Origin: an uncultured Bacteroidales bacterium
Lineage (GTDB): Bacteria; Bacteroidota; Bacteroidia; Bacteroidales; UBA7960
Direction: 5' to 3'
Length of the DNA stretch: 64,000 nt
Assembly (NCBI GenBank): GCA_964349365.1
Contig: CAYGFY010000005.1
Coordinates: forward strand, 22,561 to 86,560
In this document: piece after piece, positions 18,210 to 54,005 of the stretch
How positions within the stretch are numbered: the stretch's first letter is position 1
Layout of the letters: each line of letters begins with the position of its first letter
The notes under the pieces: model-generated
Database searches by the model: none
What the model was told of the DNA's origin: nothing
What the model saw: only the letters and a program-made list of their open reading frames with translations
Program-made: the position numbers and the translations under genes

Positions 18210-18294
18210 TACCCGGAGCCGGGCTCGAACCGGCACGGCCGCAATGGCCACAGGATTTTAAGTCCTGGGTGTCTACCAATTCCACCATCCGGGC
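18210..18294 (-). tRNA. tRNA-Leu (anticodon TAA), type II with long variable arm
   Basis: Hand-folded sequence: GCCCGGA-TG-GTGGAATTGGTAGACAC-CCAGGA CTTAAAA TCCTG-TGGCCATTGCGGCCGTG-CCGGTTCGAGCCCGG-CTCCGGGT-A. Anticodon loop is C-T-TAA-A-A. No encoded CCA. Confidence 0.9.
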
Positions 18295-18362
18295 ACTTGT
18301 TGCAAAAAACCGACTACCATTTACAAAAAAACCTCTTTTTTATCAGAGGCTTGGTAGTGTAG

Positions 18363-18435
<73 letters not shown>

Positions 18436-45557: not shown

Positions 45558-45588
45558 TTTGTCAAGTAAAAATATATGAATATTTTTG
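45558..45588 (+). promoter_or_regulatory. candidate Bacteroidota sigma-A promoter for the hyd operon (-33 TTTG / -7 TAnnTTTG)
   Basis: TTTG at 45558..45561 and TATTTTTG at 45581..45588, with a 19-nt spacer, about 50 nt upstream of ATG 45639. This is a motif match only. Confidence 0.35.
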
Positions 45589-45638
45589 GTGCCCTAAATT
45601 TCAACTATCCCCTTTTAATAAATCAAAACCAAAAAACT

Positions 45639-46103
45639 ATGGTAGAAACAAAAGACCTCGTTCGGGAAATTGCTGCCAAGTACGGCAACACCAAAGAAAG
45701 CCTGTTGCCTATCTTGCAGGAAATAGTAGCCCGAAACCGTTTTATCACCGACAACGACATTGTTGACATTGCCAACGTGCTCGATTTATCGGCTGCCGAA
45801 ATTTATGGGACAGCCTCTTTTTTCACCTTTCTGGACACGGAGAAGAGAGGCAGGTTAGTTATAAGGGTTTGCAGGTCAATTATAGCAGTGATGAAGGGCA
45901 AGCAGGAAATAGTTAGCGCAATTTCTGACATGCTTAAAATCAAAGTTGGCGAAACTACTCCCGATGGTATGTTTACACTTCTCGAAACCAACGACATTGG
46001 TTGGAGCGACCAAGAACCAAGCATGCTCATCAACGATGACGTTTATACCAATCTTACCCCCGAAAAGACCATGGAAATAATCAAGTCGTACATGCAAGGG
46101 TAG
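45639..46103 (+). CDS. hydC: NuoE/HydC-like thioredoxin-fold subunit lacking most [2Fe-2S] ligands
   Basis: NuoE-like N-terminal helices (ESLLPILQEIV...AEIYGTASFFTFL). The cluster-binding positions read VCRSIIAV and NDIGWSDQEP instead of C-x4-C and C-x3-C. Alternative upstream ATG at 45576. Confidence 0.7.
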   Translation: MVETKDLVREIAAKYGNTKESLLPILQEIVARNRFITDNDIVDIANVLDLSAAEIYGTASFFTFLDTEKRGRLVIRVCRSIIAVMKGKQEIVSAISDMLKIKVGETTPDGMFTLLETNDIGWSDQEPSMLINDDVYTNLTPEKTMEIIKSYMQG

Positions 46104-46139: not shown

Positions 46140-47306
46140 ATGAGCGAAAATAAAAAAATAAAAAAGGTTGACTACATCTTTGCCAAAGATACCCCGAGCA
46201 TGGACATTCTGGCATCGACCCTCAAAAGAGACAAAGATCAGTTTATTAACGAGTTGATAAGTTCAGGCTTGAGGGGTCGCGGGGGAGCTGGATTTCCAAC
46301 CGGATTGAAGTGGAAGTTCACCAAAGGTATTACCGGCTCCGAAAAGTACGTAATTTGCAATGCCGACGAAGGTGAGCCCGGCACTTTCAAGGATAGAGTG
46401 ATATTGCAAGAAGTACCTTGCAAGGTTATTGCCGGTATGGCATTGTGCGGGCACATGATTGGATCGAAGCAGGGATTCATTTACCTCAGGGGCGAATATA
46501 CGTGGATGAGGGCACACTTGCAGAATAAAATTGACGAGATGCACGAAGAGTTTAAGAAACTAAACCTTGACTTCACCGTGGAAATAAGGATGGGTAGCGG
46601 TGCCTACGTTTGTGGTGAGGAAACCGCCCTAATCGAGTCAATGGAGGGCAAGAGGGGCGAGCCAAGAAACAAACCGCCGTTTCCGGTGGTGTCTGGGTTT
46701 AGAAACAAACCAACTGTCGTAAACAACGTCGAAACCCTGGTTTATGCCTTGATCATTGCAAGTATTGGAGCCAAGCAGTTCAAGTCTTTGGGTACCGCAG
46801 ATTCTGCCGGGTCAAAACTGCTTTCCGTATCAGGCGATACCCACAAGCCTGGAGTTTACGAACTCGAGCTTGGAATGAAACTATCAGACTTCGTTGATGA
46901 ATTTGGCGATGGCGACACCAAGGCAGTTCAGGTTGGAGGGGCATCCGGGTTTTGTGTACCACGAAGGAAGTTTAAAGAAACAATCATTGGCTTCGAAGGT
47001 ATTCCCACGGGTGGCTCAATGATGCTGTTTAACAGTCATAGGTCAATGTACAACGTGCTGCACAATTATCTCGAGTTCTTCAACGAAGAAAGTTGCGGAC
47101 AATGCACCCCGTGCAGGGTTGGCTGCCAGCAGCTAATTCATGGAATAGAGGCAATAAAGAATAAGAAAAAGCCACCAAGGTATCTCAGCGATTTGGTAAG
47201 GCTCTCGGAAACCATGCGTATTTCGTCAAAATGCGGTTTGGGGCAATCAGTGGGCAACGGCTTCAAGTCTATCGTTGAGGAGTTTAAGGAAGAAATAATT
47301 TACTAA
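46140..47306 (+). CDS. hydB: NuoF-like flavoprotein subunit of [FeFe]-hydrogenase (FMN/NAD(P)H site plus one [4Fe-4S])
   Basis: GLRGRGGAGFPTGLKW, NADEGEPGTFKDR, YVCGEETALIESMEG and ESCGQCTPCR...SKCGLG. It is only 388 aa, with no extra ferredoxin-like or [2Fe-2S] domains. Confidence 0.85.
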   Translation: MSENKKIKKVDYIFAKDTPSMDILASTLKRDKDQFINELISSGLRGRGGAGFPTGLKWKFTKGITGSEKYVICNADEGEPGTFKDRVILQEVPCKVIAGMALCGHMIGSKQGFIYLRGEYTWMRAHLQNKIDEMHEEFKKLNLDFTVEIRMGSGAYVCGEETALIESMEGKRGEPRNKPPFPVVSGFRNKPTVVNNVETLVYALIIASIGAKQFKSLGTADSAGSKLLSVSGDTHKPGVYELELGMKLSDFVDEFGDGDTKAVQVGGASGFCVPRRKFKETIIGFEGIPTGGSMMLFNSHRSMYNVLHNYLEFFNEESCGQCTPCRVGCQQLIHGIEAIKNKKKPPRYLSDLVRLSETMRISSKCGLGQSVGNGFKSIVEEFKEEIIY

Positions 47307-47324
47307 ACCATAAACCACATTGAC

Positions 47325-49106
47325 ATGATTAACCTAAAGATAAATAATATTCCTGTAAGCGTTGAGGAGGGCACCACCATTTTAGATGCCGCCAAGAAGC
47401 TTAATTTCAGGATTCCCACTCTTTGTCATCACGAAGATTTGTGCGTTGCCGGAAACTGCCGTGTTTGTGTTGTAGAGCTCAAAGGGGTAAGAAACCTTCA
47501 GGCGGCCTGTGCTGCTTTGGTTTATGACGGCATGGAGATATTTACCAACAGCGAAAATGTTCGCAGGGTCAGGAAGCACATTGTAGAGTTGCTGCTCACC
47601 GAACACAATTCTGATTGCACCAAGTGTTACAAGAACGGAAAGTGCGAACTCCAAAACATGGCATCGGAATATGCCGTGGGCGACCATCCTTTCCTTGACT
47701 TGTTGCAGTTTCACAATTACAAGATCGACTATTCGTCGCCATCAATTGTCAAGGATGACAGCAAGTGCATTAGGTGCCAGCGCTGCGTTAGGGTTTGCAC
47801 CGAGCTTCAGGAAGTATCGGCGATTGCAGTTGCAAACAAGGGCTTCGAGCAGAAGATTTCTACCTTTTTCGACAAGCCAATGTCAAACGTGGTTTGTACC
47901 AATTGCGGACAGTGCATAAATCGCTGTCCTACTGGGGCACTTATTGAGAGAAATTACATCGACGACGTTTTCGATGCCCTTTACGATCCTGGCAAACATG
48001 TGGTTGTGCAAACAGCTCCTGCCGTCCGGGTTGCCTTGGGCGAAGACCTTGGTATTGATGTTGGCACACGTGTTACGGGGAAAATGGTAACTGCACTCAA
48101 GAGGCTTGGCTTCGATGCGGTGCTTGACACCGACTTCACTGCCGACCTTACAATTATGGAAGAGGGCTCCGAGCTTTTGGACAGGTTAAAGAGGGCCTTG
48201 GTGGATGGCCAAACCGACATTGCCCTGCCAATGACAACCTCTTGCTCGCCCGGTTGGGTTAAGTTTATTGAGCACAAGTTTCCAGAGTTCTTGCCAAATG
48301 TTTCCACGTGCAAGTCGCCCCAGCAGATGTTTGGCGCCCTTGCAAAAACATACTATGCACAAAAAAAGAACATAGATCCTTCAAAGATTGTTTCGGTTTC
48401 AATAATGCCTTGCACGGCTAAAAAATTCGAGGCAGACCGCCCCGAAATGCGCGACAGTGGCTACAAGGATGTTGACTACGTGCTTACAACCAGGGAGTTG
48501 GCTCGAATGATCAAGCAAGCTGGCCTCGACCTGCAAAGCCTCGAAGACGGCAAGTTTGACAGCCTTATGGGCGACTCTACCGGTGCTGCCGTGATTTTTG
48601 GCGTAACAGGCGGGGTAATGGAGGCTGCATTGCGCACAGCCTGGGAAATAATAACCGGCCGCGAAATTCCATTCCAAAACCTTAACGTGGGCCCGGTAAG
48701 GGGTATGGAAGGTGTTAAGGCTGCAACCATAAGAATTGAAGGCTGCCTTGAAGAGTGGAAATTCCTCGAAGGAGTTGAGCTAAAAGTTGCCATAGCCCAC
48801 GGCTTGGTCAACGCCAACGAGCTAATGAAGTCAGTTAAGGAGGGGAAGGCCGAGTACCACTTTATCGAAGTGATGGCTTGTCCAGGCGGGTGCTTAGGAG
48901 GCGGGGGGCAACCTTATCCTACCAATGCAGAAATAAGGAAAAAGCGAGCAAGTGCCATTTACGACGAGGACGAAGCGATGGTGATAAGAAAATCGCACGA
49001 GAATCCAGAGGTAATTCAAATTTACAAGGAGTTCCTCGGAAAACCTCTCGGACATAAATCGCACGAATTGCTACACACCCATTACGTTCAACGCCAAGGG
49101 TACTAA
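47325..49106 (+). CDS. hydA: [FeFe]-hydrogenase catalytic subunit, M3-type domain layout (2Fe-2S, His-ligated 4Fe-4S, 2x 4Fe-4S, H-domain)
   Basis: CHHEDLCVAGNCRVC; HNSDCTKCYKNGKCELQ; CIRCQRCVRVC; CTNCGQCINRCP. H-cluster motifs: L1 TSCSPGW (non-canonical), L2 MPCTAKKFE, L3 EVMACPGGCLGGGGQP. Confidence 0.9.
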   Translation: MINLKINNIPVSVEEGTTILDAAKKLNFRIPTLCHHEDLCVAGNCRVCVVELKGVRNLQAACAALVYDGMEIFTNSENVRRVRKHIVELLLTEHNSDCTKCYKNGKCELQNMASEYAVGDHPFLDLLQFHNYKIDYSSPSIVKDDSKCIRCQRCVRVCTELQEVSAIAVANKGFEQKISTFFDKPMSNVVCTNCGQCINRCPTGALIERNYIDDVFDALYDPGKHVVVQTAPAVRVALGEDLGIDVGTRVTGKMVTALKRLGFDAVLDTDFTADLTIMEEGSELLDRLKRALVDGQTDIALPMTTSCSPGWVKFIEHKFPEFLPNVSTCKSPQQMFGALAKTYYAQKKNIDPSKIVSVSIMPCTAKKFEADRPEMRDSGYKDVDYVLTTRELARMIKQAGLDLQSLEDGKFDSLMGDSTGAAVIFGVTGGVMEAALRTAWEIITGREIPFQNLNVGPVRGMEGVKAATIRIEGCLEEWKFLEGVELKVAIAHGLVNANELMKSVKEGKAEYHFIEVMACPGGCLGGGGQPYPTNAEIRKKRASAIYDEDEAMVIRKSHENPEVIQIYKEFLGKPLGHKSHELLHTHYVQRQGY

Positions 49107-49121
49107 TTCAATCGTGGTTAA

Positions 49122-49554
49122 TTAAACAAGAGCGTACTGCAAGCGACCTAATTCTCCTTGAAGGACGTTGCTTTTAAGTGCCCCCATACCCGCCAATACT
49201 AGGATTCTTTTAGAAGATATTTTTGTGTATTGCAAACCCTTATCGGTTATGACCGAGTCATGTGGCAGCCAGCCACCAAAGTCACTTCCGGGCAGGCCAA
49301 GCGGAAATCCGAAAAAAATCGGCATTTGTTAAGAAACCAGTGGTGTTAACGACACCATCAAAAATTGAAAATCGTTCGAAAAAAGCCAGAAATAGGGTAA
49401 ATCGTTTATTTTCAATAAATTTGGCAACCCCCTCCATCAATGACTCGTGTTTTAATAACACGCCCTGGTTTGTAGTAAGGTCGCCCCTTTGAGGCTCCAA
49501 GGTTGGGGGGGGGTATTTTTTTTTAACACATAGCCGTTGCTTCGCATTGACCAA
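49122..49554 (-). pseudogene. possible decayed gene remnant (two overlapping ORF fragments in different frames)
   Basis: ORFs 49282..49554 and 49122..49325 (minus) abut at an A7/T7 run (49312..49318). A 1-nt shift there would join ...TGFLTNADFF to GFPLGLPGSDFGGWLPHD.... There is no recognisable family and no good start. Confidence 0.25.
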
Positions 49555-49963
49555 GGCTAAAATATTTTGCCCTTAAGGGCGAGAAGCCAAAAGCAACAAT
49601 TGATATTTAATGACCACAAATAACAAATAGGCCATACGACAACAATGGATAATTTAAATCGACAATAAAAACCCACCCCCGCTTCAGCTTACAACCCATA
49701 ACTCCGCCTGCCTTGTATTTTACTCGGCAACTGGCGGACAAGTTACAGATTGCAACCCCAATAAACATCATAAATATCACAAACCCCGTAAGCTCGATAA
49801 GCCAAACATGCAAGCTCCCAAGCTTTATTCAACCTCCAACGCATAAAAATATTTGGGATACAAAATACCCCATTAAACTTGTCGCTATTTTCACTAACTT
49901 TGGTGGTTAAAAATGCCGTGCAAGAAAAACTGCAAAGCTGCAAGTCTTTAAAATGATGCTCAA

Positions 49964-51397
49964 ATGAAATTCACACCCGAAAAATACAAGATCCCCGACG
50001 CGCCAATGGTGCCGTTTATCGACAATGGTGAAATTGAAGACTACCTTGCAACAGCAAGGCCCGACAAGGCAATGGTGCGCGATGTAATTCAAAAATCGCT
50101 TTCGAAAAATAGGTTATCATTGCATGAAACCGGCATACTGCTCAATACAAGCGATCCAGACCTTATCGATGAAATAAAGGAAGGTGCCACCACGCTCAAA
50201 AACCAAGTTTACGGAAACAGAATAGTTTTGTTTGCGCCACTTTACATTGGAAACAAATGCTCTAACAATTGTACTTACTGTGGCTTCAGGTCTTCAAACA
50301 AGGATGCGGTTAGGAAAACCCTCAACTTAGAAGAAATAATTCAAGAAATTGAAGCCCTCGAAGACAATGGCCAAAAGCGATTGATACTTGTTTTTGGCGA
50401 GCATGCACAATATCATCCCGAGTACATTGCAGATTCTGTCAGGGTTGCCTACCAGGTTAAGAAGGGACGCGGCGAAATAAGGCGGGTCAACATTAATGCA
50501 GCACCACTCGACATTGAAGGATTTAGGATTGTAAAGGAAGCAGGTATAGGAACATACCAGGTTTTCCAAGAAACCTACCACTCGGAGGCTTACAAAACTT
50601 ATCACATAAGGGGCAAAAAGGCCGATTTCAACTACAGGCTAACCTCGCTTGACAGGGCGCAGGAAGCTGGCCTCGACGATGTTGGCATTGGGGTTTTGTT
50701 TGGGTTGTACGATTGGAGGTTCGAGATTCTTGGATTGGTAAGGCACACCAATCACCTCGAGGCTTGTTACAACGTTGGTCCCCACACAATTTCTTTCCCG
50801 AGGATTAAGGATGCATCAATGCTTTCGGTTGGCAACCAGTATTTCGTAAATGACGATGACTTCGCGCGCATGATTGCCATTTTGCGCCTTGCCGTGCCAT
50901 ACACGGGACTAATTCTCACCGCGAGAGAATCGGAGCAATTGCGCAACCAGATTTTGAAGTTCGGTGTTTCGCAAATTGATGGTGGCACCAAACTCGAACT
51001 GGGCAGTTATTCAAAAGAAAAAAGCCTCAACGAGGAGCAAAACCTCAACAAGGGGCAATTCAGGATTAACGACAACCGATCGCTAAACGAAATAATAAAC
51101 GAGTTGTTAGAGCAAAACATGCTGCCTTCGTTTTGTACCGCTTGTTACAGGACTGGAAGAACCGGCGAGCACTTCATGGAATTTTCCGTTCCAGGTTTCA
51201 TAAAAAGATTTTGCACTCCAAATGCCATACTCACTCTTGCCGAATACTTGCACGATTACGCCCCCCAGGACACTCGGGAAAGAGGCTGGGATGTTATTGA
51301 AAAAAACATTAAGGATATTGGCAACGAAAAAACCGAAGCCCGTTTACGCGAAAAACTTGAGTTGATGAAAAACGGGCAAAGGGATTTGTATTTTTAA
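49964..51397 (+). CDS. hydG: [FeFe]-hydrogenase H-cluster radical SAM maturase HydG
   Basis: Radical SAM CSNNCTYCGF, ThiH-like core, and C-terminal CTAC-x22-C (CTACYRTGRTGEHFMEFSVPGFIKRFC). Confidence 0.9.
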   Translation: MKFTPEKYKIPDAPMVPFIDNGEIEDYLATARPDKAMVRDVIQKSLSKNRLSLHETGILLNTSDPDLIDEIKEGATTLKNQVYGNRIVLFAPLYIGNKCSNNCTYCGFRSSNKDAVRKTLNLEEIIQEIEALEDNGQKRLILVFGEHAQYHPEYIADSVRVAYQVKKGRGEIRRVNINAAPLDIEGFRIVKEAGIGTYQVFQETYHSEAYKTYHIRGKKADFNYRLTSLDRAQEAGLDDVGIGVLFGLYDWRFEILGLVRHTNHLEACYNVGPHTISFPRIKDASMLSVGNQYFVNDDDFARMIAILRLAVPYTGLILTARESEQLRNQILKFGVSQIDGGTKLELGSYSKEKSLNEEQNLNKGQFRINDNRSLNEIINELLEQNMLPSFCTACYRTGRTGEHFMEFSVPGFIKRFCTPNAILTLAEYLHDYAPQDTRERGWDVIEKNIKDIGNEKTEARLREKLELMKNGQRDLYF

Positions 51398-51705: not shown

Positions 51706-52905
51706 ATGAAAGGAAGAGACCTTAAGCCCCATGTTGGTATTTTTGGCCGACGCAACAGCGGGAAGAGTTCGTTGATTAATTACCTAACGGGGCAAACCAC
51801 TGCCATCGTGGCCGATGAACCCGGAACCACGACCGATCCGGTTAAAAAATCGGTGGAAATATTTGGCGTGGGGCCAGCTATTGTTGTTGACACCGCCGGA
51901 ATTGACGATTCGGGAAAAGTGGGAAAACTGCGAGTTGAAAAGGCCCTGAAAATCATACCAACAATTGATATGGCCATACTCGTAATTGCCGAAAACCAAT
52001 TTGGCCAGTGCGAGGAACAATTGGTAAGGCTCTTCGAAAATTACTCGGTGCCATTCGTGGTTATTCACAACAAGGCCGATGTTGTTGCATTAATGCCTAC
52101 ACTGGCAAGTGAACTGAAGAAAAAATTTGGCGTTGATGTCCTAGACTTCTCAACCAAAAATCCGGAAAACAAGGGGCCGTTAATTGAACTCCTGAAAACC
52201 AATATTCCGAAAACTGCCTATACCAATGTTTCGTTATTCAAGGGTATTGTCAAACCCAAAGAAGTGGTTTTGCTCGTTACTCCAATCGACTCTGCAGCGC
52301 CCGAAGGAAGGATGATATTGCCACAAGTTATGGCCTGGCGCGATATTTTGGACAACGACTGCATTTGCATTTCGGCAAAAGAAAGCGAGCTCGAAGATTT
52401 TTTCAAGTTGGGAATAAAACCAAGTTTGGTTGTTACAGATAGCCAGGCGTTTGAATTGGTTTCAAGCATCGTTCCGCATGATGTTGCGCTTACTGGATTT
52501 AGCGTGATTTTTGCTCGGTACAGGGGCGATTTTGAAAAATATCTTGAAGGGACACCGTCAATTGACCAACTGCAAGATGGCGATAGGGTTCTTATTCTCG
52601 AGTCTTGCACCCATCAGGTTAGCTGCGATGATATTGGAAGGTTCAAAATTCCAAGATGGCTAGAAAAATATACGGGCAAAAAGCTCCATTTCGATATGGT
52701 TGCCGGATTTTCGGACTTGCTTTCCGAGCCCGGGAGTTACAAGCTGGCGATTCAGTGCGGCGGGTGCGTGGTTACTGCCAAGCAATTAAAGGGAAGGCTC
52801 AAGCCATTTGTCGATGCAGGGATACCCGTTACGAATTATGGCCTCGCAATTGCATACGTAAATGGAATATTTGATAGAATTACCGAACCCTTTAAAAATC
52901 ATTAA
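51706..52905 (+). CDS. hydF: [FeFe]-hydrogenase H-cluster maturation GTPase HydF
   Basis: P-loop GRRNSGKSSLIN, DTAG and NKAD. C-terminal cluster motif ESCTH-x46-QCGGC. Confidence 0.9.
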   Translation: MKGRDLKPHVGIFGRRNSGKSSLINYLTGQTTAIVADEPGTTTDPVKKSVEIFGVGPAIVVDTAGIDDSGKVGKLRVEKALKIIPTIDMAILVIAENQFGQCEEQLVRLFENYSVPFVVIHNKADVVALMPTLASELKKKFGVDVLDFSTKNPENKGPLIELLKTNIPKTAYTNVSLFKGIVKPKEVVLLVTPIDSAAPEGRMILPQVMAWRDILDNDCICISAKESELEDFFKLGIKPSLVVTDSQAFELVSSIVPHDVALTGFSVIFARYRGDFEKYLEGTPSIDQLQDGDRVLILESCTHQVSCDDIGRFKIPRWLEKYTGKKLHFDMVAGFSDLLSEPGSYKLAIQCGGCVVTAKQLKGRLKPFVDAGIPVTNYGLAIAYVNGIFDRITEPFKNH

Positions 52906-52916
52906 AATTGCTCGCG

Positions 52917-54005
52917 ATGATTGGAAGTTTGTTAAAAAAGGAAAGCCTTGACAAGGCTGATATTTGTTACCTGCTTAAGGCAAAGGGTGACGAACAAAAA
53001 GCATTATTCAAACATTCGGCAGAGGTAAAGAGAAAAACCATTGGCAACAAGGTTTACCTCAGGGGCTTGATTGAGCTGTCGAACATTTGCGCCAAGAATT
53101 GTTATTATTGCGGCATCAGAAAGGATAATACCAATGTTGACAGGTATAGCCTGACTGACGAAGAGGTTCTGGATGCAGCTCGATTTGCTCATGAATCGCG
53201 ATATGGCTCTGTTGTAATGCAATCGGGCGAGTTGCAAGGCGAAGGCTTTGGCCTTAGGGTTGAAAGACTTTTGAAAAAGATAAATGAGCTCTCTAGCGGC
53301 AAGCTTGGCGTAACCCTTTCGTGCGGAGAACAAACGGAGGATGTTTACAAACGGTGGTTCGAGGCCGGAGCCCACAGGTATCTGTTGCGCATAGAGTCTT
53401 CAAGCCCTGAGTTATACGCCAGATTGCACCCCAACGATTCTCTTCATGATTTCGAAAAAAGATTAGAATGCCTCAACCTGCTTCGCAAAATCGGCTATCA
53501 GGTAGGAACCGGGGTTATGATAGGGCTGCCATTCCAAACTGTTGAACATCTTGCCGACGACCTCTTGTTCATGAAAAAAATGGACATAGATATGTGCGGG
53601 ATGGGGCCTTACATCGAGCACAACCAAACCCCGCTAATAGAGCACGCCGGAGGATTGCCACCCCTCGAGGAAAGGTTGCAGCTAACCCTAAAAATGATTG
53701 CCGTGCTAAGAATGATGATGCCAACAATAAATATGGCTTCAACCACGGCCCTACAGGCCATTGACAAGATTGGACGCGAAAAGGCAATTAAGATTGGCGC
53801 AAATATCTTAATGCCAAACATTACTCCCGGATTGTATCGCGACAGCTACGCACTCTACGAAAACAAACCCTGCACCGATGAAAGTGCCGAAGATTGCAAG
53901 AATTGCATCGATATCAGGGTAAAAATGGCAGGTTCGGTCGTGGCTTACGGCGAATGGGGCGATTCGCTGCACTTTAAAGAGGCAAAAGACAGGCCGAAAC
54001 TTTAA
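52917..54005 (+). CDS. hydE: [FeFe]-hydrogenase H-cluster radical SAM maturase HydE
   Basis: CAKNCYYCGIR, a BioB-like core, and a position directly after hydF. Start is ATG 52917 or TTG 52908. Confidence 0.85.
   Translation: MIGSLLKKESLDKADICYLLKAKGDEQKALFKHSAEVKRKTIGNKVYLRGLIELSNICAKNCYYCGIRKDNTNVDRYSLTDEEVLDAARFAHESRYGSVVMQSGELQGEGFGLRVERLLKKINELSSGKLGVTLSCGEQTEDVYKRWFEAGAHRYLLRIESSSPELYARLHPNDSLHDFEKRLECLNLLRKIGYQVGTGVMIGLPFQTVEHLADDLLFMKKMDIDMCGMGPYIEHNQTPLIEHAGGLPPLEERLQLTLKMIAVLRMMMPTINMASTTALQAIDKIGREKAIKIGANILMPNITPGLYRDSYALYENKPCTDESAEDCKNCIDIRVKMAGSVVAYGEWGDSLHFKEAKDRPKL

What the first reader, a model, noticed from the sequence alone, without database searches (positions are those of the whole stretch)
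48234..48257. HydA L1 H-cluster motif reads TSCSPGW, with Ser at the second Cys position of TSCCPxW
Seen in sequence: the codons are aca acc tct tgc tcg ccc ggt tgg, giving T-T-S-C-S-P-G-W. TCG is not one substitution away from a Cys codon, so a single-base substitution or miscall does not explain it. L2 (MPCTAKKFE) and L3 (EVMACPGGCLGGGGQP) are canonical. Established knowledge: in CpI numbering the first Cys of TSCCP (C299) is the proton relay and the second (C300) ligates the [4Fe-4S] subcluster. A gap-free alignment anchored on P-G-W therefore puts Ser at the ligand position. All three maturases are intact, which argues that the enzyme is still made. Natural L1 variants are associated with atypical or putatively sensory hydrogenases, but I cannot place this exact variant from memory.
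Basis: partly seen in the sequence, partly recalled or inferred. Interest (0 to 1): 0.6.

Follow-up and report, generated by a model that had tools for sequence, protein, structure and literature searches.

The report
Known serine variant of hydrogenase motif
The hydrogen-producing enzyme in this window really does have a serine where textbooks show an iron-binding cysteine, but about one in five such enzymes have the same change, including a well-studied active one with a solved structure, so the finding is real but ordinary.

Summary
Window 48234-48257 encodes T-T-S-C-S-P-G-W in a 593-aa HydA (47325-49106). Ser308 (TCG, 48246-48248) aligns without gaps to CpI Cys300, the L1 ligand of the H-cluster [4Fe-4S]. 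It is not an error: 12 contigs encode the identical protein, all 120 nearest cluster representatives read SCSPG, and relatives use all four TCN Ser codons.

It is not new. Kertess et al. 2017 (citing Winkler 2013) say Ser occupies this position in about 20% of sequences. My independent tally is 24 of 121. The cryo-EM structure of A. woodii HydABC (7Q4V) has HydA1 51.5% identical with the same TSCSPGW. It shows Ser301 replacing the Cys ligand, with normal FTIR signatures and activity (Katsyv 2023).

All other H-cluster, proton-pathway and accessory-cluster residues are canonical, and HydE/F/G are intact. The enzyme is a catalytic group A hydrogenase, not a sensory one. Its short HydB meets all four published criteria for non-bifurcating NADH-dependent enzymes. 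Ser occurs with both HydB types and with both TCN and AGY codons, so it arose more than once.

Seen in passing: the HydC subunit has lost three of its four [2Fe-2S] cysteines, and this is conserved across a Bacteroidales subclade.

The parts
48234..48257 (+). L1 (P1) H-cluster motif T-T-S-C-S-P-G-W. Cys307 (48243-48245) is at the proton-relay position (CpI C299). Ser308 (48246-48248, TCG) is at the [4Fe-4S]H ligand position (CpI C300 = A. woodii S301 = T. kivui C299).
47325..49106 (+). hydA: 593-aa, 65.7-kDa M3-type group A [FeFe]-hydrogenase. Domains: Fer2_4, NADH-G_4Fe-4S_3, 2x[4Fe-4S] ferredoxin, Fe_hyd_lg_C, Fe_hyd_SSU.
   Evidence: Pfam. NCBIfam NF040763 at 894 bits against a cut-off of 765. 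PDB 7q4v_A E=5e-182.
48405..48431 (+). L2 motif MPCTAKKFE (Cys363 = CpI C355; Lys366 = K358), canonical
48867..48914 (+). L3 motif EVMACPGGCLGGGGQP (Cys519 and Cys523 = CpI C499 and C503), canonical
46140..47306 (+). hydB: 388-aa, 42.9-kDa NuoF-like FMN/NADH subunit with one [4Fe-4S]. It has no N-terminal [2Fe-2S] domain and no C-terminal 2x[4Fe-4S] domain. Signatures: EPGTFKDR, GSGAYVCGE, GGASG.
   Evidence: criteria from PMC7311640
45639..46103 (+). hydC: NuoE-like thioredoxin-fold subunit. It is 154 aa from Met22; the mechanical ORF starts at 45576. The four [2Fe-2S] ligand positions read C-A-D-S instead of C-C-C-C.
49964..51397 (+). hydG maturase (radical SAM)
   Evidence: TIGR03955 at 504.8 bits, cut-off 312
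51706..52905 (+). hydF maturase GTPase
   Evidence: TIGR03918 at 457.6 bits, cut-off 326
52908..54005 (+). hydE maturase (radical SAM)
   Evidence: TIGR03956 at 347.5 bits, cut-off 255

Best explanation
Ser308 is a natural, selected replacement of the L1 cysteine that normally ligates the [4Fe-4S] part of the H-cluster, in a fully functional catalytic group A [FeFe]-hydrogenase. The neighbouring Cys307 keeps its role as the proton relay to the di-iron site. By analogy with A. woodii HydA1, the Ser oxygen takes the place of the thiolate at one cluster iron (inferred). HydE, HydF and HydG mature the enzyme normally. The hydrogenase works in a three-subunit HydCBA complex of an uncultured Bacteroidales bacterium. 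The flavin subunit of that complex is of the type that couples H2 directly to NAD(H) without ferredoxin-dependent bifurcation (inferred from sequence criteria). Shown here: the residue, its register, its conservation, the integrity of every other catalytic residue, and the HydB and HydC sequence types. Inferred: O-ligation of iron, activity, and NADH-only coupling.
For: Register: S308 aligns gap-free to CpI C300, A. woodii S301 and T. kivui C299. Precedent: Katsyv et al. 2023 report for A. woodii HydABC (7Q4V) that a Cys ligand of cluster A1 'is replaced by a serine residue (Ser301Aw)'. [quoted passage not shown] The window's HydA is 51.5% identical to that protein and has the same LPMxTSCSPGWxKFIE. 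Frequency: Ser in about 20% of sequences according to Kertess 2017. I counted 24 [TS]SCSP against 97 [TS]SCCP among the 150 best 50%-cluster representatives. Selection: 120 of 120 nearest relatives keep Ser, and synonymous TCN codons vary. Integrity: C299, E279, E282, R286, S319, M353, C355, K358, M497, C499, C503 and all accessory-cluster ligands are conserved, and the maturases pass their equivalog cut-offs. Family: NCBIfam 'NADH-dependent [FeFe] hydrogenase, group A6' at 894 bits against 765. HydB: T and K in EPGTFKDR, Y in GAYVCGE, GGASG instead of GGPSG, and no extra Fe-S domains, which matches all four non-bifurcating criteria of Losey 2020. The same operon type occurs in 47 related loci. 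HydC lacks the [2Fe-2S] that gates bifurcation in the Katsyv model.
Against: No biochemical data exist for this protein. Engineered Cys-to-Ser at the same position in C. reinhardtii HydA1 (C115S in that paper's numbering) largely lost the cluster and all activity. Ser is therefore not tolerated in every scaffold, and I found no covarying residue that explains the tolerance here. Fe-O ligation in A. woodii rests on a cryo-EM model whose coordinates I could not inspect. The non-bifurcating assignment rests on sequence criteria derived from few characterised enzymes, and 'group A6' is used inconsistently in the literature.
Confidence: 0.8

Rival explanations
1. Register shift. Cys307 moves over to ligate the [4Fe-4S] cluster, and the proton-relay role is lost or taken by Ser308 or water. 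The enzyme would then be slow or functionally altered.
For: [quoted passage not shown] Serine ligation of natural [4Fe-4S] clusters was described as unknown in 2017.
Against: The flanks T-S and P-G-W are invariant and gap-free on both sides, which leaves no slack for a one-residue shift. A. woodii HydABC has the same motif, is fully active, shows canonical FTIR states including Hhyd, and its authors model Ser301 as the ligand. The rest of the proton pathway that feeds the relay Cys (E279, S319, E282, R286) is conserved. That conservation would be pointless if the relay were lost.
Confidence: 0.07
2. The complex is an electron-bifurcating (confurcating) HydABC like those of A. woodii and T. maritima, using NADH plus reduced ferredoxin, despite its short HydB.
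For: The best structural matches of HydA are the bifurcating A. woodii and T. kivui enzymes, at E about 1e-181. Many annotation schemes call any HydA with a NuoF neighbour 'group A3, bifurcating'. 21-22 related Ser-type HydAs do sit next to bifurcating-type HydBs.
Against: The window's HydB lacks the C-terminal 2x[4Fe-4S] ferredoxin-binding module and the N-terminal [2Fe-2S] domain. It carries T/K, Y and GGASG where bifurcating enzymes have A/M, F and GGPSG. Its best PDB match is the non-bifurcating NAD-reducing NiFe hydrogenase subunit 5xf9_A. Deleting the HydB C-terminus gave low bifurcation activity in T. kivui. HydC lacks the C1 cluster.
Confidence: 0.12
3. Sequencing or assembly error, or a decaying pseudogene: the true or ancestral codon is TGY and the enzyme is dead.
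For: None beyond the deviation from the textbook motif.
Against: TCG is two changes from TGY. The identical protein is on 12 contigs. 120 of 120 relatives have Ser. The ORF, all other catalytic residues and the maturases are intact.
Confidence: 0.01
4. A sensory or regulatory [FeFe]-hydrogenase (group C/D-like) whose altered L1 motif tunes it for H2 sensing rather than turnover.
Against: No PAS or other signalling domain: the architecture is M3 plus a small-subunit domain. The relay Cys and the full proton pathway are kept. The gene is co-operonic with NuoE/NuoF-like subunits and the maturases. It scores above the cut-off for a catalytic group A model.
Confidence: 0.02

Closest known systems
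Acetobacterium woodii HydA1 in HydABC (PDB 7Q4V, 7Q4W, 8A5E; Katsyv et al. 2023, PMC10021017)
   Same: Identical L1 motif TSCSPGW, with Ser at the ligand position (S301 there, S308 here). Same M3 domain architecture. 51.5% identity over 567 aligned residues. All other H-cluster and proton-path residues are the same.
   Different: The A. woodii partner HydB is 599 aa, of the bifurcating type (DPGAFMDR, GAFVCGE, GGPSG, C-terminal ferredoxin module), and its paper describes the HydC subunit of HydABC as harbouring a [2Fe-2S] cluster. Here HydB is 388 aa and of the non-bifurcating type, and HydC has lost three ligands.
Syntrophomonas wolfei Hyd1ABC and Syntrophus aciditrophicus HydAB, non-bifurcating NADH-dependent [FeFe]-hydrogenases (Losey et al. 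2017 and 2020; PMC5626996, PMC7311640)
   Same: Subunit pattern of 63/43.9/17.5 kDa against 65.7/42.9/about 17-20 kDa here. HydB lacks the extra Fe-S centres, and all four HydB sequence criteria match.
   Different: [quoted passage not shown] S. wolfei is predicted to hold two [2Fe-2S] clusters, so its HydC keeps its cluster; the window's HydC does not.
Engineered C. reinhardtii HydA1 C115S (Kertess et al. 2017, PMC5855289; C115 in their numbering is the L1 ligand, next to relay C114)
   Same: The same Cys-to-Ser exchange at the same ligand position.
   Different: The engineered variant loses most of the [4Fe-4S] cluster, takes up no [2Fe] and has no activity. The natural Ser enzymes are conserved, and A. 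woodii's is active. What makes the difference remains unexplained.
Clostridium pasteurianum CpI (canonical TSCCPGW)
   Same: M3 architecture, 43% identity, and every catalytic and cluster ligand except C300.
   Different: Cys at position 300; monomeric and ferredoxin-dependent, with no NuoE/F partners.

Membership tests
Group A catalytic [FeFe]-hydrogenase (HydA, M3 type) | H-domain (Fe_hyd_lg_C) with a small-subunit-like C-terminus and N-terminal F-cluster domains | tested here: met
   Pfam PF02906 1e-99, PF02256 8e-28, PF13510, PF10588, Fer4. TIGR02512 at 531 bits against 406, and NF040763 at 894 against 765.
Group A catalytic [FeFe]-hydrogenase (HydA, M3 type) | L1 motif TSC[C/S]PxW with the proton-relay Cys. 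Structurally characterised members have Cys (CpI, T. kivui) or Ser (A. woodii) at the following ligand position. | tested here: met
   TSCSPGW, with C307 at the relay position and S308 at the ligand position. The strict textbook TSCCPxW is not matched, but Ser is documented inside the family.
Group A catalytic [FeFe]-hydrogenase (HydA, M3 type) | L2 MPCxxKxxE and L3 ExMxCxxGCxxG with their three Cys ligands | tested here: met
   MPCTAKKFE and EVMACPGGCLGG; C363, C519, C523
Group A catalytic [FeFe]-hydrogenase (HydA, M3 type) | Proton-transfer pathway residues (CpI C299, E279, S319, E282, R286) | tested here: met
   C307, E280, S327, E283, R287
Group A catalytic [FeFe]-hydrogenase (HydA, M3 type) | H2 turnover with an assembled H-cluster | not testable with these tools
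   Needs expression, FTIR/EPR and activity assays
Ser-ligated H-cluster subgroup (A. woodii HydA1 type) | Ser at the CpI-300 position in a gap-free alignment | tested here: met
Ser-ligated H-cluster subgroup (A. woodii HydA1 type) | Actual Fe-O(Ser) coordination of the [4Fe-4S] subcluster | not testable with these tools
   Cofactors cannot be modelled here. The claim rests on the A. woodii cryo-EM description.
Non-bifurcating NADH-dependent HydABC (S. wolfei type; Losey 2020 criteria) | HydB without the additional Fe-S cluster domains | tested here: met
   388 aa with only Complex1_51K and NADH_4Fe-4S; the alignment ends where A. woodii HydB continues into its ferredoxin module
Non-bifurcating NADH-dependent HydABC (S. 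wolfei type; Losey 2020 criteria) | T/S and K/S/A at T. maritima HydB positions 232/234; Tyr at 367; no GGPSG at 427-431 | tested here: met
   EPGTFKDR, GSGAYVCGE and GGASG, against DPGAFMDR, GAGAFVCGE and GGPSG in A. woodii HydB
Non-bifurcating NADH-dependent HydABC (S. wolfei type; Losey 2020 criteria) | Ferredoxin-independent NADH:H+ / H2:NAD+ activity | not testable with these tools
   Biochemical assay needed
Electron-bifurcating HydABC (group A3; T. maritima, A. woodii, T. kivui) | HydB with a C-terminal 2x[4Fe-4S] ferredoxin-type module and the bifurcating-type signatures (A/E-x-M, Phe, GGPSG) | tested here: not met
Electron-bifurcating HydABC (group A3; T. maritima, A. woodii, T. kivui) | HydC carrying the [2Fe-2S] cluster C1 | tested here: not met
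   Ligand positions read C-A-D-S
Sensory [FeFe]-hydrogenases (groups C/D) | PAS or other signalling domain and/or loss of the relay Cys and proton pathway | tested here: not met
   No such domain; relay Cys and pathway retained

The most novel reading that the evidence does not exclude
The Cys-to-Ser exchange at the [4Fe-4S]H ligand may be a recurrently selected tuning of the H-cluster (redox potential, catalytic bias, or tolerance to CO/O2), not a neutral polymorphism. It is encoded by both TCN and AGY codons. It flips between Cys and Ser among enzymes only about 27-30% diverged. It is fixed in whole clades. In this Bacteroidales lineage it is combined with a stripped-down NADH module: a short HydB and a HydC that has lost its [2Fe-2S]. 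Natural scaffolds must also contain as yet unidentified features that make Ser ligation stable, because the same change destroys C. reinhardtii HydA1.
Probability: 0.25. Interest if true: 0.45.

Novelty: already known. Interest (0 to 1): 0.15.

Why it matters
For this window it matters little. The motif should not be flagged as a defect, a pseudogene signal or a marker of a sensory enzyme, and annotation pipelines that demand TSCCPxW would wrongly reject about a fifth of genuine group A hydrogenases. The wider open question already exists in the field: why do natural enzymes tolerate a serine ligand that wrecks the algal enzyme, and what does it do to the cluster's potential? This locus offers only another test case, from Bacteroidales, in a probably NADH-only complex. 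The cluster-less HydC noticed in passing is the less expected feature of the locus. It would be a natural probe of what the off-pathway N1a/C1-type cluster is for.

Tried and rejected
1. A literal full-text search for 'TSCSP' returned 29 papers. Only one was relevant: Di Rienzi 2013, which notes TSCSPGW in Melainabacteria hydrogenases.
2. I scanned for residues that covary with Ser versus Cys at the ligand position, using 19 Ser and 94 Cys 50%-cluster representatives. The best associations were F296, A362, A498 and G302 in CpI numbering, at p = 7.5e-5 to 5.7e-4. These are uncorrected for hundreds of tests and for phylogeny. I found no clean compensating position and rejected this as an explanation.
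3. Both the window and A. woodii have a Cys at CpI A321, which looked like a possible substitute ligand. It is equally common in Cys-type enzymes (14/19 against 53/94, p = 0.2), so I rejected it.
4. The NJ tree of 133 H-domains shows Ser-type sequences scattered among Cys-type ones, but it is star-like and unreliable at depth. I did not use it to count events. I relied instead on codon families and on the closest Cys/Ser pairs.
5. The genome-collection scan used TSCSPGW itself as one search pattern, so its Ser:Cys ratio is biased. I did not use it for frequency.
6. Rfam found nothing in or near the operon. Promoter and terminator scans were at background level, and sigma-70 consensus does not suit Bacteroidota anyway.
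7. Relatives L085 and L086 have a Rex-like gene between hydA and hydG. The window's 857-bp gap holds no remnant of it and has no similarity to the gap of the 94% relative.
8. Winkler et al. 2013, the source of the 20% figure, is not held in the library.
9. The review PMC8924675 contains no motif discussion.
10. I did not run structure prediction. Cofactors cannot be modelled with the tools, and an experimental structure exists of a 51.5%-identical homologue with the same residue.
11. I could not obtain the S. wolfei or S. aciditrophicus HydA sequences to check their L1 motifs.
Full report
**1. Observation**

The bases at 48234-48257 are aca acc tct tgc tcg ccc ggt tgg. They lie in frame in a 593-aa ORF at 47325..49106 (+) that reads ...DIALPMTTSCSPGWVKFIEHKF.... 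The Ser codon is TCG at 48246-48248 (residue 308). L2 (MPCTAKKFE) and L3 (EVMACPGGCLGGGGQP) are canonical.

**2. What the gene is**

- Pfam gives the full M3 architecture: a [2Fe-2S] Fer2_4 domain, the His-ligated NADH-G_4Fe-4S_3 domain, a 2x[4Fe-4S] ferredoxin domain, Fe_hyd_lg_C (1e-99) and Fe_hyd_SSU.
- NCBIfam places the protein above the curated cut-off of NF040763, 'NADH-dependent [FeFe] hydrogenase, group A6' (894 bits against 765), and of TIGR02512, group A.
- The gene is the third of a tight hydC-hydB-hydA operon, with 36-bp and 18-bp spacers.
- After an 857-bp gap come hydG, hydF and hydE. All three pass their NCBIfam equivalog cut-offs.
- The identical protein is called on 12 metagenome contigs with the same gene order.
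- The nearest named relatives are Bacteroidales MAGs.

**3. Register of the serine**

HMMER alignments to solved structures are gap-free across P-M-x-T-S-C-[C/S]-P-[G/S]-W-x-x-x-x-E. So is a four-way MAFFT alignment with CpI, A. woodii HydA1 and T. kivui HydA1. The nearest indel is a 7-residue insertion that ends before LPM.

Ser308 corresponds to CpI C300, and Cys307 to CpI C299. It is established knowledge that C299 is the proton relay and that C300, C355, C499 and C503 bind the [4Fe-4S] subcluster. My numbering also reproduces the Ser301(Aw) and Cys299(Tk) used in the HydABC structure paper.

The following are all conserved:
- the proton-pathway residues E279, E282, R286 and S319;
- M353, K358 and M497;
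- the three remaining ligand Cys;
- every accessory-cluster ligand.

**4. It is a known variant**

- The best PDB match is A. woodii HydA1 (7q4v_A, E = 5e-182, 51.5% identity). It carries the same TSCSPGW.
- Katsyv et al. [quoted passage not shown] - Kertess et al. 2017 exchanged each ligand in C. reinhardtii HydA1. In their numbering the L1 ligand is C115, next to C114. They found that C115S loses the cluster and all activity. [quoted passage not shown] 2013.
- Di Rienzi et al. 2013 also noted TSCSPGW in Melainabacteria hydrogenases.

**5. Independent measure of spread**

- All 120 nearest 90%-cluster representatives (75-100% identity) read SCSPG.
- Among the 150 best representatives of a library clustered at 50% identity, 24 have [TS]SCSP and 97 have [TS]SCCP. 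That is about 20%, which matches the published figure.
The 80 loci kept come from Bacteroidota, Ignavibacteriota, Chlorobi-like, Verrucomicrobiota, Planctomycetota, Armatimonadota, Spirochaetes, Bacillota, Syntrophus/Smithella and other deltaproteobacteria, Actinomycetota, Acidobacteriota, Fusobacteria and others. One of the search patterns was TSCSPGW itself, so this set shows range, not frequency.

**6. Evolution of the site**

- In those loci the Ser codon is TCT (22), TCG (21), TCA (18), TCC (4), AGC (13) or AGT (4).
- TCN and AGY codons cannot interconvert in one step while staying Ser, but each family is one step from TGY. At least two independent Cys-to-Ser events, or passages back through Cys, are therefore needed.
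- Cys-type enzymes lie only 27-30% from Ser-type ones. One example is a Melioribacteraceae TSCCPGW enzyme that is 72-73% identical in the H-domain to TSCSPGW enzymes from another Melioribacteraceae MAG and a Bacteroidetes MAG.
- A neighbour-joining tree also scatters Ser-type sequences among Cys-type ones, but it is poorly resolved.
- Within Bacteroidota all four TCN codons occur while Ser is invariant. This is the signature of purifying selection for Ser.

**7. Context: which kind of complex**

Losey et al. 2020 give four features that separate bifurcating from non-bifurcating NADH-dependent beta subunits:
- extra Fe-S domains;
- A/E and M against T/S and K/S/A at T. maritima HydB positions 232/234;
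- Phe against Tyr at position 367;
- GGPSG at positions 427-431.

The window's HydB is 388 aa and has only the FMN and single [4Fe-4S] domains. It reads EPGTFKDR, GSGAYVCGE and GGASG. A. woodii HydB in the same alignment reads DPGAFMDR, GAGAFVCGE and GGPSG, and continues into a ferredoxin module. The best PDB match of the window's HydB is the NAD-reducing NiFe hydrogenase subunit 5xf9_A.

The subunit masses of 65.7, 42.9 and about 17-20 kDa mirror S. wolfei Hyd1ABC (63, 43.9 and 17.5 kDa). That enzyme makes H2 from NADH without ferredoxin.

Across the 80 loci, Ser-type HydA sits next to non-bifurcating-type HydB in 47 cases and next to bifurcating-type HydB in 21-22. The Ser ligand is therefore not linked to bifurcation.

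**8. Mechanism, with basis**

- Shown: the residue, its register, its conservation, the intact catalytic apparatus and the partner types.
- Inferred from the A. woodii precedent: Ser308 supplies an oxygen ligand to one iron of [4Fe-4S]H, Cys307 relays protons, and the enzyme turns over normally.
- Inferred from the HydB and HydC sequence features: electrons pass between the H-cluster and FMN/NAD(H) through the HydA F-clusters and the single HydB cluster, without a ferredoxin branch.

Rivals:
- A one-residue register shift that makes Cys307 the ligand. This is unlikely given the invariant flanks, the conserved proton path and the activity of A. woodii.
- A bifurcating complex. This is contradicted by HydB and HydC.
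- Sequencing error or pseudogene. This is refuted.
- A sensory hydrogenase. There is no signalling domain, and the relay and proton pathway are kept.

**9. What stays unexplained**

The engineered Ser fails in the algal enzyme while natural Ser enzymes thrive. I looked for covarying positions and for a substitute Cys and found none that stands up. This is an existing open question, and the window does not make it newly testable.

**10. Seen in passing**

HydC has a single cysteine. Against T. kivui HydC and complex I NuoE, the four [2Fe-2S] ligand positions read C-A-D-S (RVCRSIIAVMKG ... NDIGWSDQEPS).
- The same pattern is invariant in the closest relatives (HydA identity 94, 83, 81 and 80%), while the rest of HydC diverges to 64%.
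- It occurs in 76 of the 120 nearest HydC cluster representatives.
- Every species-representative locus at 76% HydA identity or less where a HydC next to the HydB was recovered keeps C-C-C-C there.
- A NuoE-like module without the N1a cluster has precedent in the NAD-reducing NiFe hydrogenase HoxF of R. eutropha.
- Its loss fits a non-bifurcating enzyme, because in the Katsyv model reduction of that cluster gates bifurcation.

**11. Verdict**

This is a real feature, correctly read and correctly assigned to the ligand position. It is already described in the literature, common, and present in a characterised active enzyme. Interest is low (0.15) and the novelty rating is 'already known'.

Noticed in passing
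window 45576..46103 (+); probable true start 45639: The NuoE-like HydC subunit has only one cysteine. The four [2Fe-2S] ligand positions read C-A-D-S instead of C-C-C-C, while the thioredoxin-like fold still scores 130 bits in Pfam. The pattern is invariant in relatives at 80-94% HydA identity and in 76 of the 120 nearest HydC clusters (all named ones are Bacteroidales). More distant relatives keep all four Cys. The precedent is R. eutropha HoxF, which lacks N1a (PMC3189943).
   Followed up: yes
window 46140..47306 (+): HydB is a minimal 388-aa NuoF-like subunit with no N-terminal [2Fe-2S] domain and no C-terminal 2x[4Fe-4S] domain. It meets all four Losey 2020 criteria for non-bifurcating NADH-dependent hydrogenases. 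Simple neighbour-based schemes would label the complex as bifurcating group A3.
   Followed up: yes
window 49107..49963: An 857-bp gap between hydA and hydG has no convincing ORF, no Rfam match, and no similarity to the equivalent gap of the 94%-identical relative (L082). Relatives L085 and L086 carry a Rex-like gene here (CoA_binding in L085, Put_DNA-bind_N in L086). The window holds no remnant of it.
   Followed up: partly
P0121; P0122; loci L055, L063, L066, L065: One database protein of 4122 aa contains seven H-domain repeats. P0122 (1104 aa) matches HydA only in its C-terminal 590 residues, so it looks like a fusion. Several deltaproteobacterial and Armatimonadota loci carry two Ser-type hydA genes at the same locus, in three of them on either side of a reading frame of about 1000 aa that contains a HydB-like region.
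   Followed up: no
/ representatives (e.g. P0167, P0231, P0237, P0252, P0258, P0266): Other natural L1 variants appear among more distant relatives. Some have Ser at the relay position with Cys kept at the ligand position ('SC'). Single cases read CA, CT, WC, GC, AC and SS.
   Followed up: no
PMC10021017 text against the alignment: The HydABC paper names Cys354(Tk)/Cys356(Aw) as the Cys bridging to the di-iron site. In my alignment these correspond to CpI C355 (L2). In CpI the bridging Cys is conventionally C503 (L3). This is possibly a labelling slip in the paper, and it does not affect the Ser finding.
   Followed up: no
window 18210..18435 (-): Two tRNA genes are the only Rfam matches at gathering threshold in the 64-kb window.
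   Followed up: no
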